Below are positions 1-1,613 of a stretch of DNA of 2,199 nucleotides, in pieces (the first letter of the stretch is position 1; every line of letters starts with the position of its first letter). The notes under the pieces are model-generated. The model did no database searches. It saw nothing but the letters and a program-made list of their open reading frames with translations, and had not been told where the DNA came from. The DNA is from Naegleria gruberi (lineage: Eukaryota). Location of the stretch: assembly GCA_000004985.1 (NCBI GenBank), contig GG739282.1. One strand, 5' to 3'. A program made the translations under genes and the position numbers.

Positions 1-350
1 AGGCAATAAAAGACACACATTATCAGTCATTGTAATAACAAATGCTCAACCTTTTGTTATAATATGTGAAATCTGTTGACAGAACAAAATGAAATACAAA
101 AAGTCTACTAATAAAGAGTTCTTACCAAGAAATCACCGAAAAACTCATGTAAAATGAAGAATGGAAAATCATTTTTAAGGGGTAAATAAATGTAATCTGA
201 CAGATAAATGAATTTGCGAGGAATTATGATGAAAAGGATGTAGTGAGAATGGGATTTGATAAAGACAGGATGTGTAAAAAACATGAGGAGGAGTATGATG
301 ATGAATAAAAGGGAAATGATTTTTCTAACATAGATAAATATAATTTTTGT

Positions 351-351
351 T

Positions 352-385
<34 letters not shown>

Positions 386-1613
386 CCCAATAATTTATCA
401 AAAAAATAAAATACAAAAAATCAATTCTCCTATAACAACAAAATAAATTGTGAAAATGTACAAAAATTATATTCAAACTCGAATTTAGATCGAGAAACAC
501 ACTAAACCACCAAACGGTACTACTAAGATAATTCTTGGTTGCATTGTAATTGCATGAAATTTTTGTAATCAATTCGAATGCCTTCTTGACATTGTCAGCT
601 CCAGCAATTTCTCCAATATCAATGGCTGCAATTGTATTATTAGCATCAAGTTTCTGGTCAGAATCGCACTCAACTCTCACCAATGAATTATCATTCCATT
701 CAATTTTCCATTCTCCAATTAAGATCCCTGTGTGAACAACTCCATAATTATTTACATTAAGAATGTCTGCGAATGTAGCCATTGCCTTCTTGGTTAATTC
801 GTGTTTTCTTAAAGATGAAACCAACAACTTGACGCTCACAACTGCTGGAATATTGGAAACAATTCTTGAATTTTTCTTCATTGTAGGACGAACAAAGTGA
901 AAATGCATGAATCTGTCTTCACAGACATATCTTTGAGCTTCCAAATCTAAACTTTCACTATATCCAAGCTTCTCTGGTGTAGTGTTGAATTCTTTAAGGT
1001 ATGCTCTAATCTTTTTCTTGGCTAGCTCAACTCCTTTAAATTCGGCTTGTGATAATCTCCAGCTTTCTATTGGAATTTGAACATCATATTCTTGATTTTC
1101 ATTCTCTACACCAGAAGATTCAGAGTTAACATATGGCCTAGTACTATTATTACATAACTTTAGGAAAGTACTTGTAGTGGTTGGATTATTGGAATGCACT
1201 TCACTTTCAGATTCGCTATTTGATGAAACACTTTTGTCTTCTTTCATGAAGAATAACTTTCTCTCATCCTCAAACTTTGCAATCACAACTTGATAAACAA
1301 AGAACTTGGATTCTCCTTCATCATTTACATACTTATTCACAACATCGATCAATCTTTCCTTCTCCACTTCAATCTCTTCCTTTGTTTTCATTTTACAAAG
1401 TTTATCATAATCTGCTCCATTAAATTTGGCATTCTTCTCCAGAGCTTGTTTTACTTTCTCACTTTCGAATTTGTAATGTTTACACAAAACAACTAGTTCG
1501 AGATTTGTTAATTTGTGGAGAGGTTTTTGGAGAAGTTTTTTAATGTCAATTACCGATGGTGTGCTACATATTCTGCTTGGTGGAGGTGCAATACTGGAAG
1601 AAAACTGTCCCAT
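351..1613 (-). CDS. Single long ORF encoding a 420-aa protein. It has an N-terminal myristoylation motif (MGQFSSS), a ~250-aa region of unknown function, and a C-terminal putative permuted-papain-fold (PPPDE/DeSI- or LRAT-like) thiol peptidase/acyltransferase domain. The 3' boundary is uncertain because the ORF reads through a microsatellite.
   Basis: Only long ORF in six frames (1263 nt in ~70% AT DNA, where random ORFs are short). Coherent codon bias: GGA, AGA, CCA, GAA/GAT, AAG/AAA. ATG is preceded by A8 (plus 1614-1621), i.e. aaaaaaaaATG. Protein-like composition with recognisable motifs: His294 'VVHTGILIGEW' and Cys354 'ISCNYN'. Antisense ORFs 550..735 and 1290..1496 are short and low-complexity. 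Confidence 0.75.
355..382. repeat. (AT)14 dinucleotide microsatellite (28 nt perfect).
   Basis: Read directly: 'atatatatatatatatatatatatatat' from 355 to 382. It overlaps the last 9 codons of the ORF (IYIYIYIY) and sits immediately before its stop (TGA = plus 351..353). Confidence 0.95.
459..851 (-). other. Putative permuted papain-fold catalytic domain (PPPDE/DeSI-DUF862-like, or more generally the LRAT/NlpC-P60 superfamily), residues ~255-385. Candidate catalytic His294 is at codon 732..734 and Cys354 at codon 552..554.
   Basis: Motif order and spacing recalled from PPPDE proteins. First beta-strand 'VSVKLLVSS' (cf. VYLNVYDL). 'GVVHTGILIGEWKIEW' (cf. GIWHTGIVV.. / FHSGIEVYGREF). 'AIDIGEIAGADNVKKAFELITK' (cf. 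VVLGSTDF.EDDIEKIVEELGK). 'ISCNYNATKNY' (cf. KNCNHFSSAL). 'TVWWFSVF' (cf. IPRWINRLAYF). The His-to-Cys distance is 60 aa. Judged by eye, not by alignment software. Confidence 0.45.
1086..1232 (-). other. Ser/Glu/Asn-rich acidic low-complexity linker (residues ~128-176: SVSSNSESESEVHSNNPTTTST...NSESSGVENENQEYD). It is predicted disordered and has multiple S-x-x-E/D (CK2-type) phospho-acceptor contexts.
   Basis: Read directly from the translation. The compositional bias sits between the helical N-terminal region and the catalytic domain. Confidence 0.5.
1593..1610 (-). other. N-myristoylation consensus at the protein N-terminus (M-G-Q-F-S-S-S: Gly2 and Ser6).
   Basis: Matches the N-myristoyltransferase substrate rule G-x-x-x-S/T at positions 2-6, with small residues following. 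This is a sequence motif only. Confidence 0.5.

What the first reader, a model, noticed from the sequence alone, without database searches (positions are those of the whole stretch)
351..1613. Myristoylation-motif protein with a C-terminal PPPDE/DeSI-like permuted-papain domain behind a long, unassignable N-terminal extension
From memory, PPPDE/DeSI (DUF862) proteins are usually short, with the catalytic domain at the very N-terminus. Here the candidate His/Cys domain sits at residues ~255-385. It is preceded by ~250 aa that include a Gly2 myristoylation consensus, a charged helical block (res. 20-125) and an acidic Ser/Glu linker. A lipid anchor plus a deSUMOylase/deubiquitinase-like or acyltransferase-like papain fold would suggest a membrane-targeted thiol enzyme. 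The architecture could be lineage-specific.
Basis: partly seen in the sequence, partly recalled or inferred. Interest (0 to 1): 0.6.

Follow-up and report, generated by a model that had tools for sequence, protein, structure and literature searches.

The report
Truncated copy of Naegleria PPPDE-like gene
The reading frame is real and does belong to a PPPDE-like (permuted papain) thiol-enzyme family of the amoeba Naegleria gruberi, but this small contig holds only the first 362 codons of a gene that exists in full (524 codons) elsewhere in the same genome, and the catalytic cysteine is not encoded here.

Summary
The window is a whole 2,199-bp Naegleria gruberi scaffold, not nematode DNA. The ORF at 351..1613 (-) is real, but only codons 1-362 (528..1613) are coding.

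- **Twin gene.** Those 362 codons are 360/362 identical to NAEGRDRAFT_72064. That 524-aa protein lies on a 500-kb scaffold and continues ...NY-SLLGA-NCQHF... for 162 more residues.
- **Break.** The window leaves that sequence right after Tyr362. Residues 363-420 read through AT-rich non-coding DNA, including (TA)14.
- **Catalytic residues.** His294 is the family's conserved His (34/35). Cys354 is not the nucleophile (21/35). The family triad is His294-Tyr362-Cys369, and Cys369 is absent from the window.
- **Gly2.** It is kept in 20 of 35 relatives.
- **Distribution.** Every named relative is from Heterolobosea. UniProt already labels some paralogs as PPPDE- or SAM-domain proteins.

This is an ordinary, lineage-specific variant seen through a truncated copy. 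Interest is low to moderate.

The parts
528..1613 (-). True coding part: codons 1-362 of a truncated copy of N. gruberi gene NAEGRDRAFT_72064
   Evidence: 100% identical to NCBI 'predicted protein, partial [Naegleria gruberi]'. 360/362 identical to the 524-aa P0054. All homologue alignments end at residue 362.
1593..1613 (-). Met1-Gly2 N-myristoylation-type motif (MGQFSSS)
   Evidence: Direct reading fits PROSITE PS00008. Gly2 is present in 20 of 35 family members and Ser/Thr at position 6 in 18. The modification itself was not tested.
1224..1544 (-). Helical N-terminal domain (residues 24-130), probably a divergent SAM domain with a ~20-residue insertion
1068..1223 (-). Ser/Glu/Asn/Thr-rich linker (residues 131-182), predicted disordered
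   Evidence: pLDDT <50 for residues 136-172. Poorly aligned across the family.
876..1067 (-). Family-specific helical pre-domain (residues 183-246) with the motif AQ(N/R)(L/Y)VCxDRF
   Evidence: Helices 189-208, 222-230 and 232-246 at pLDDT 90-97. Present in 33 of 35 members, with moderately conserved columns.
528..851 (-). PPPDE-like permuted-papain core, N-terminal two thirds only (residues 255-362): beta strands, His294, helix 339-359, Tyr362
732..734 (-). His294 codon (CAC), the catalytic-type His of the family
   Evidence: Conserved 34/35. Aligned to His38 of DeSI-1 in 'GIWHTS'.
528..530 (-). Tyr362 codon (TAT): third triad residue and last codon shared with the full-length gene
   Evidence: Conserved 34/35. 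Aligned to the Tyr 7 residues before the Cys in DeSI-1. The His-Tyr-Cys triad of PPPDE proteins is described in PMC9012467.
552..554 (-).
   Evidence: Only 21/35 conserved, replaced by T/S/A/L/I. It lies inside helix 339-359.
351..527 (-). Non-coding read-through tail of the ORF (residues 363-420), including (TA)14 at 355-382
   Evidence: No homology to the family continuation in any frame. GC 0.22 and codon score -0.51 bits/codon. TRF finds the AT repeat.

Best explanation
**What the window holds (shown).** The window is an orphan 2.2-kb Naegleria gruberi scaffold. It carries the first 362 codons of a gene whose full 524-codon version, NAEGRDRAFT_72064, sits on a 500-kb scaffold of the same assembly.

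**Layout of the full-length protein (shown by alignment and models).**
- Met-Gly start with an N-myristoylation-type motif.
- A divergent SAM-like helical domain.
- A disordered acidic/Ser linker.
- A three-helix pre-domain.
- A PPPDE-like permuted-papain (NlpC/P60) core with a His294-Tyr362-Cys369 triad.
- A conserved ~150-residue C-terminal domain.

**The break (shown).** In the window the sequence departs from the full-length gene immediately after Tyr362. The Cys-bearing helix (NCQHF) and the C-terminal domain are missing. The ORF instead runs 58 codons through AT-rich non-coding DNA to a chance stop.

**How the full-length enzyme probably works (inferred).**
- It is probably a membrane-associated thiol hydrolase.
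- Cys369, activated by His294 and oriented by Tyr362, would attack an isopeptide bond (ubiquitin- or SUMO-type) or a thioester (S-acyl) bond.
- The myristoyl group would place it on membranes.
- The SAM-like domain would mediate self- or hetero-association.

**Consequence.** The copy in this window, as assembled, cannot be catalytically active. It is either an assembly or haplotype fragment, or a real truncated duplicate.
For: **Identity**
- 100% match to an N. gruberi partial protein whose contig is 2,199 bp long.
- P0054 (XP_002672923.1, 524 aa, on a 499,907-bp contig) is 360/362 identical over residues 1-362. It then continues SLLGANCQHF...

**Truncation**
- tblastn of paralog C-termini finds nothing beyond window position 528, in any frame.
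- composition and codon score of the tail are non-coding-like.
- Direct reading: the minus strand reads ...AAT TAT CTT AGT AGT ACC. No GT donor lies where splicing could give ...NY|S....
- the N. lovaniensis paralog gene is a single 1,560-nt exon.

**Fold**
- window model, pLDDT 81.
- Foldseek top hits are PPPDE1 (E 0.014, probability 1.00) and DeSI-1 (E 0.05, probability 0.99).
- model of the 95-97%-identical complete unit (95% to the window over their shared part; 97% to the full-length twin), pLDDT 86, pTM 0.86.

**Motifs**
- His294 34/35, Tyr362 34/35, Cys of NCQ 31/33, Cys354 21/35.
- a domain-only profile hits only 2wp7, 3ebq, PLAAT4 and RARRES3 in the whole PDB. It places His, Tyr and Cys on the DeSI-1 catalytic residues.
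- PF05903 matches 13 of 35 members. It scores E 1.4e-4 on the full-length twin.

**SAM-like domain and membrane placement**
- for the SAM-like domain.
- a C2 domain in paralog P0003.
- Gly2 in 20/35.

**Chemistry of relatives**
- PMC9012467: PPPDE1/2 and CLN5 are Cys-based S-depalmitoylases with a His-Tyr-Cys triad and only weak deSUMOylase/deubiquitinase activity.
- PMC6759571: Arabidopsis DeSI3a is a membrane-bound deSUMOylase.
Against: - Pfam PF05903 stays below its curated cut-off for single units: 22.1-24.4 bits against 29.2. There is no hit at all on the window ORF.
- Sequence-profile E-values to the solved PPPDE structures are weak: 0.063 and 0.41.
- The SAM assignment depends on paralogs. 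The window's own subfamily profile finds no SAM domain in the PDB. The structure model was built with an alignment that includes canonical-SAM paralogs.
- No DNA of the full-length locus could be fetched. So the breakpoint was located from protein comparison only. Artefact and real truncation cannot be told apart.
- Substrate, myristoylation and membrane location are all inferred, not shown.
Confidence: 0.8

Rival explanations
1. First reader's version. The 420-aa ORF is a complete protein whose PPPDE-like domain (residues ~255-385) uses a His294/Cys354 dyad.
For: The ORF is open for 420 codons. His294 and Cys354 exist. Cys354 is the majority residue in its column, 21/35.
Against: Cys354 is replaced by T/S/A/L/I in 14 of 35 members. 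The NCQHF Cys is kept in 31/33 and aligns to DeSI-1 Cys108. A 99.4%-identical full-length gene continues differently after residue 362. The tail has non-coding composition and includes a (TA)14 repeat.
Confidence: 0.03
2. The break after codon 362 is an artefact or haplotype fragment of the draft assembly (a chimeric join or an unplaced allelic contig). The organism has only intact copies of the gene.
For: The scaffold is only 2,199 bp long. It differs from the full-length gene by 2 of 362 residues, which is allele-like. The break lies about 530 nt from the contig end, and low-complexity (TA)14 is nearby. A third, 97%-identical copy sits on another small 10-kb scaffold.
Against: Nothing direct. 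The region downstream of the break looks like ordinary Naegleria non-coding DNA. Tandemly expanding families often leave real gene fragments: tandem paralogs are seen, and a fused gene model.
Confidence: 0.5
3. The truncation is real. The window is a recently duplicated gene fragment or a structural-variant allele, that is, a pseudogene or a Cys-less product.
For: The family is large and tandemly arranged in N. gruberi. Codons 1-362 are intact, with no frameshift or stop. The junction is not at a splice-compatible site (direct reading).
Against: No independent sequence supports the junction. The exact ORF product is not on record in any other assembly.
Confidence: 0.4
4. The sequence after codon 362 is a long intron, and the exon encoding NCQHF... 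lies beyond the contig end.
For: GT dinucleotides occur 5 and 8 nt after codon 362 (direct reading). The NCBI model is flagged partial.
Against: No GT is placed so that splicing would reproduce ...NY-S-L-L-G... of the 99.4%-identical gene (direct reading). No family-like exon lies in the remaining 527 nt. The N. lovaniensis paralog is intronless.
Confidence: 0.07
5. The catalytic domain belongs functionally to the LRAT/PLAAT (H-box/NC-box) acyltransferase-phospholipase branch rather than to PPPDE.
Confidence: 0.12

Closest known systems
DeSI-1/PPPDE2 and DeSI-2/PPPDE1 (Pfam PF05903 Peptidase_C97; PDB 2wp7, 3ebq)
   Same: - His in a G-x-aromatic-H-T/S motif.
- Tyr 7 residues before an N-C motif Cys, giving a His-Tyr-Cys triad.
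   Different: - Only 13-19% identity, and Pfam scores below the curated cut-off.
- DeSI proteins are ~170 aa single-domain proteins with the domain at the N-terminus.
- Here the core is preceded by about 250 residues (Gly2 motif, SAM-like domain, linker, helical pre-domain) and followed by a ~150-residue extra domain.
- The copy in the window lacks the Cys.
CLN5 (PDB 6r99), a Cys-based S-depalmitoylase
   Different: CLN5 is a lysosomal, glycosylated luminal protein with other extensions. No sequence similarity is detectable.
PLAAT/HRASLS and LRAT (Pfam PF04970; PDB 7zot, 2lkt)
   Same: His before Cys (permuted). An NC(E/Q)HFV motif on the catalytic helix. Membrane-associated enzymes.
Arabidopsis DeSI3a
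   Same: A PPPDE-family enzyme that works at the cell membrane (PMC6759571). This is a precedent for a membrane-placed PPPDE.
   Different: No SAM domain or C-terminal domain is reported for it. Its relationship to the Naegleria family was not tested here.
SAM domains of aveugle/Hyphen, CNK2, SAMD12, polyhomeotic (Pfam PF00536/PF07647)
   Different: The window's subfamily has a ~20-residue insertion and has lost the conserved Trp. It has no direct Pfam or PDB sequence hit. The link is by profile-profile comparison, 87%.

Membership tests
PPPDE / Peptidase_C97 (PF05903) | Match to the Pfam model at or above its gathering score (29.2 bits) | tested here: not met
   - Window ORF: no hit.
- Full-length twin P0054: 22.1 bits, E 1.4e-4.
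- 95-97%-identical unit (95% to the window, 97% to P0054): 22.9 bits.
- P0003: 24.4 bits.
- Only P0002, which holds two units, sums to 43.4 bits.
- 13 of 35 members hit at E <= 0.1.

The matches are significant by E-value but sub-threshold, so this is a divergent relative.
PPPDE / Peptidase_C97 (PF05903) | Circularly permuted papain (NlpC/P60) fold with closest similarity to solved PPPDE structures | tested here: met
   [not shown]
PPPDE / Peptidase_C97 (PF05903) | Catalytic His on a beta strand in a G-x-x-H-T/S motif | tested here: met
   G291-V-V-H294-T295. His is 34/35 and Gly 34/35. It aligns to DeSI-1 'GIWHTS'.
PPPDE / Peptidase_C97 (PF05903) | Polar third residue (Tyr) 7 residues upstream of the Cys | tested here: met
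   Tyr362 is conserved 34/35. The spacing Y362-C369 in P0054 equals Y101-C108 in PPPDE1.
PPPDE / Peptidase_C97 (PF05903) | Nucleophile Cys in an N-C motif at the start of the catalytic helix | tested here: not met
   It is absent from the window in all six frames. It is present in the full-length twin (C369 in NCQHF) and in 31 of 33 family members. So the family meets this feature and this copy does not.
PPPDE / Peptidase_C97 (PF05903) | Thiol-dependent isopeptidase or thioesterase activity | not testable with these tools
   Needs a biochemical assay of the 524-aa protein.
LRAT / PLAAT (PF04970) | Match to the Pfam model at its gathering score (24.3 bits), with H-box and NCEHF box | tested here: not met
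   Best score 23.9 bits on the two-unit P0002. 15.1 bits on the single unit. E 0.43 on P0054. 4 of 35 members at E <= 0.1.
SAM domain (PF00536 / PF07647) | Sequence match to SAM models | tested here: inconclusive
   - Window ORF: none.
- Subfamily-only profile against the PDB: none.
- Paralogs P0021, P0027, P0030, P0037 and P0038 pass, E 1e-13 to 4e-4.
- hhalign of the window subfamily against those N-termini: probability 87%, E 3.8e-6.
SAM domain (PF00536 / PF07647) | Compact five-helix SAM fold | tested here: met
   [not shown]
N-myristoylated proteins | Met-Gly start fitting the NMT consensus (PROSITE PS00008), with Gly2 conserved | tested here: met
   MGQFSSS fits by direct reading. Gly2 is present in 20/35 and Ser/Thr6 in 18/35 members.
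N-myristoylated proteins | Actual attachment of myristate by N-myristoyltransferase | not testable with these tools
   Needs metabolic labelling or mass spectrometry. A literature search found no Naegleria NMT study.

The most novel reading that the evidence does not exclude
The Heterolobosea-specific family is a new architectural class of PPPDE enzymes. At least 39 clusters at 50% identity begin with Met-Gly and carry a SAM or SAM-like domain, a PPPDE-like core and a private C-terminal domain. In this reading they are lipid-anchored, SAM-assembled thiol hydrolases that remove S-acyl groups or ubiquitin-like modifiers from membrane proteins. A still bolder sub-reading is that the truncated copy in this window is real and expressed. 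It would then be a Cys-less decoy that co-assembles with the full-length enzyme through its SAM-like domain.
Probability: 0.2. Interest if true: 0.5.

Novelty: new variant of a known kind. Interest (0 to 1): 0.25.

Why it matters
For genome annotation, this orphan scaffold should be treated as a redundant or truncated copy of NAEGRDRAFT_72064. The 420-aa ORF, and the 370-aa partial model, should not be taken as a protein.

For biology, Naegleria and Willaertia have expanded a PPPDE-like thiol-hydrolase family whose layout has no published description that I could find. The layout is a Gly2 motif, a SAM or SAM-like domain, a helical pre-domain, the PPPDE core and a private C-terminal domain.

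PPPDE enzymes have recently been shown to be S-depalmitoylases as well as weak deSUMOylases/deubiquitinases (PMC9012467). A membrane-anchored, possibly oligomerising branch could therefore help define what PPPDE enzymes really act on. Nothing here overturns existing knowledge.

Tried and rejected
- **Pfam and PDB sequence searches on the raw 420-aa ORF.** They gave nothing useful: DUF3853 at E 0.02 and a photosynthetic reaction-centre chain at E 2.2, caused by the junk tail. Both were dismissed as chance.
- **Word-index protein search.** It found only the self hit. With the family profile it scored only 4 proteins because of the candidate cap. The exhaustive phmmer run was needed.
- **A missing exon in window 1-527.** I looked by three-frame translation and by tblastn with five paralog C-termini. 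Nothing was found.
- **Transposon ends or duplications at the break.** Only short AT-rich chance repeats turned up.
- **Rfam.** No RNA family matched.
- **DNA of the N. gruberi paralogs and of the full-length twin.** The proteins tried were P0001, P0002, P0003, P0005, P0054 and the 420-aa ORF. None is on record. Only the N. lovaniensis paralog P0004 was retrievable.
- **SAM control.** The SAM hits of the whole-family profile proved to be driven by distant paralogs. The subfamily-only control removed them. The SAM call therefore rests on hhalign and on fold, and is given as probable, not certain.
- **Literature.** No paper covers SAM+PPPDE or Naegleria PPPDE proteins beyond one passing mention in a review.
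Full report
**1. What is in the window**

The window has one long ORF, 351..1613 on the minus strand, 420 codons. Searching its first 362 residues returned a 100% match to 'predicted protein, partial [Naegleria gruberi]'. That protein is 370 aa, and its longest contig is 2,199 bp. So the window is an entire small scaffold of the N. gruberi draft genome.

**2. Only 362 of the 420 codons are coding**

An exhaustive phmmer search found 39 relatives. Pairwise comparison of the full 420-aa ORF with the closest ones always ends at residue 362.

The relatives go on with '...Y-x5-N-C-Q-H-F-V...' and about 150 more conserved residues. The window instead reads LSSTVWWFSVF...IYIYIYIYM.

That tail looks non-coding on three counts:
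- Its GC is 0.22, against 0.343 for codons 1-362.
- Its codon-usage score is -0.51 bits/codon, whereas every 58-codon window of the body scores +0.05 to +0.74.
- It runs through a perfect (TA)14 repeat.

A tblastn search with five paralog C-termini found nothing in any frame of the remaining 527 nt.

**3. A full-length twin exists in the same genome**

The 90%-identity cluster of the partial protein holds a second member, P0054. This is NAEGRDRAFT_72064 (XP_002672923.1, UniProt D2VSU5), 524 aa, on a 499,907-bp scaffold.
- It is 360/362 identical to the window ORF (H140D, N307Y).
- After Tyr362 it continues SLLGAN-C369-QHFVSDLL... to residue 524.
- A third copy, 97% identical, forms the C-terminal part of the 893-aa model NAEGRDRAFT_54750 on a 10-kb scaffold.

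The window therefore carries a truncated, near-identical copy.

The junction is not a simple intron:
- The minus strand reads ...AAG AAT TAT | CTT AGT AGT ACC.... No GT lies where splicing could reproduce ...N-Y-S-L-L-G (direct reading).
- The retrievable N. lovaniensis paralog is a single 1,560-nt exon.

I could not fetch DNA of the full-length locus. So I cannot say whether the break is an assembly or haplotype artefact, or a real gene fragment. I rate these at about 0.5 and 0.4, and a long intron at about 0.07.

**4. The catalytic domain**

Sequence evidence:
- The window ORF itself has no Pfam PPPDE or LRAT hit, because the most diagnostic motif is missing.
- The full-length twin hits PF05903 (Peptidase_C97/PPPDE) at E 1.4e-4 and 22.1 bits, below the curated 29.2.
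- The 95-97%-identical unit (95% to the window over their shared part; 97% to the full-length twin) gives 22.9 bits.
- 13 of 35 family members hit PF05903, and 4 hit LRAT weakly.

Structural evidence:
- The AlphaFold model of window residues 1-362 has pLDDT 81. Foldseek against the PDB puts PPPDE1 (3ebq, probability 1.00) and DeSI-1 (2wp7, probability 0.99) first.
- The model of the complete 95-97%-identical unit has pLDDT 86 and pTM 0.86.

Residue correspondence:
- A profile of the domain alone hits only four PDB sequences: the two PPPDE structures (E 0.063 and 0.41) and two PLAAT proteins.
- Its alignment puts the family His (window His294, in G-V-V-H-T) on DeSI-1 His38 (GIWHTS).
- It puts the family Tyr (window Tyr362) and the NCQHF Cys on the YNLFEH-NC-NTF of DeSI-1.
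- The Tyr-to-Cys spacing of 7 equals that of PPPDE1, whose His38-Tyr101-Cys108 triad is described in PMC9012467.

Conservation:

| Residue | Conserved in family |
|---|---|
| His294 | 34/35 |
| Tyr362 | 34/35 |
| NCQ Cys | 31/33 |
| Cys354 | 21/35 (T/S/A/L/I elsewhere) |

Its Cys is wrong. The true nucleophile, Cys369 of the twin, is not encoded in the window.

**5. The N-terminal 250 residues**

- **Gly2.** MGQFSSS fits the N-myristoylation consensus. Gly2 recurs in 20 of 35 relatives, for example MGNTSS, MGQSYW, MGNYFSQ and MGSKQST.
- **Helical block.** Residues 24-130 form a confident helical domain, pLDDT 92-96.
- **SAM evidence from the whole family.** The whole-family profile hit more than 25 SAM domains in the PDB, the best at E 1e-4.
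- **Control.** A profile of the window's own subfamily alone hit none. Those hits therefore come from more distant paralogs, which carry Pfam-significant SAM domains at the same place, E 1e-13 to 4e-4.
- **Link to those paralogs.** Profile-profile comparison of the two groups gives probability 87%, E 3.8e-6. The window's subfamily has a ~20-residue insertion.

I therefore call the block a probable, divergent SAM domain, with confidence about 0.7.

Residues 136-172 are predicted disordered. Residues 183-246 form a conserved three-helix pre-domain present in 33 of 35 members.

**6. Family and distribution**

Every named relative comes from Naegleria gruberi, N. lovaniensis or Willaertia magna. 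The rest are unnamed environmental sequences.

UniProt already labels some paralogs 'PPPDE domain-containing protein' or 'SAM domain-containing protein'. One paralog adds a C2 domain. Some paralogs lie in tandem. I found no paper describing this architecture.

**7. Likely mechanism (inferred)**

The full-length protein would be a thiol hydrolase. Cys369 would be activated by His294, with Tyr362 as the third residue. It would act on isopeptide (Ub/SUMO-type) or S-acyl thioester bonds, which are the activities shown for PPPDE1/2 and CLN5 (PMC9012467) and for DeSI3a (PMC6759571).

The Gly2 motif and the C2 domain in a paralog suggest action at membranes. DeSI3a is a precedent for a membrane-bound PPPDE enzyme. 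The SAM-like domain suggests self-association. An LRAT/PLAAT-like acyltransferase or phospholipase chemistry is a weaker alternative, about 0.12.

The copy in this window lacks the nucleophile and cannot be active as assembled.

**8. Verdict**

This is a lineage-specific variant of a known enzyme kind, seen through a truncated and redundant scaffold. Interest is 0.25.

Noticed in passing
P0002 (NAEGRDRAFT_54750), residues 1-893; not in the window: This 893-aa model looks like a fusion of neighbouring genes. A protein kinase domain and a first PPPDE-like unit (nearly identical to part of P0003) are spliced into residue ~140 of a 97%-identical copy of the window's gene. The second unit's own N-terminus is skipped.
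   Followed up: partly
[not shown]
   Followed up: partly
window 355-382: A perfect (TA)14 microsatellite. It is what the ORF tail translates as IYIYIYIY.
   Followed up: yes
window 100-400, + strand: A purine-rich stretch with GC skew +0.49. It holds no ORF of note and has no Rfam match. It looks like ordinary AT-rich intergenic DNA.
   Followed up: partly
window 1512-1540: A 12-nt near-tandem repeat (TTTTTGGAGAAG, 2.4 copies) inside the coding region, about codons 25-34. It is probably insignificant.
   Followed up: no
P0056/P0013 (NAEGRDRAFT_50633 and 50635) and Willaertia P0007/P0009: Paralogs share scaffolds and have near-consecutive locus numbers. This suggests the family expanded in tandem in N. 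gruberi and Willaertia magna.
   Followed up: no
P0003, P0017, P0020: Some family members are multi-domain. P0003 has a C2 domain (Pfam E 1e-13). P0017 and P0020 are 1,778 and 1,521 aa with the PPPDE-like unit near the C-terminus.
   Followed up: no
window codons 140 and 307 (1194-1196 and 693-695): These are the only two differences from the full-length twin: His140 against Asp, and Asn307 against Tyr. At position 307 the twin and the third copy both have Tyr, so the window's Asn is the odd one out.
   Followed up: partly
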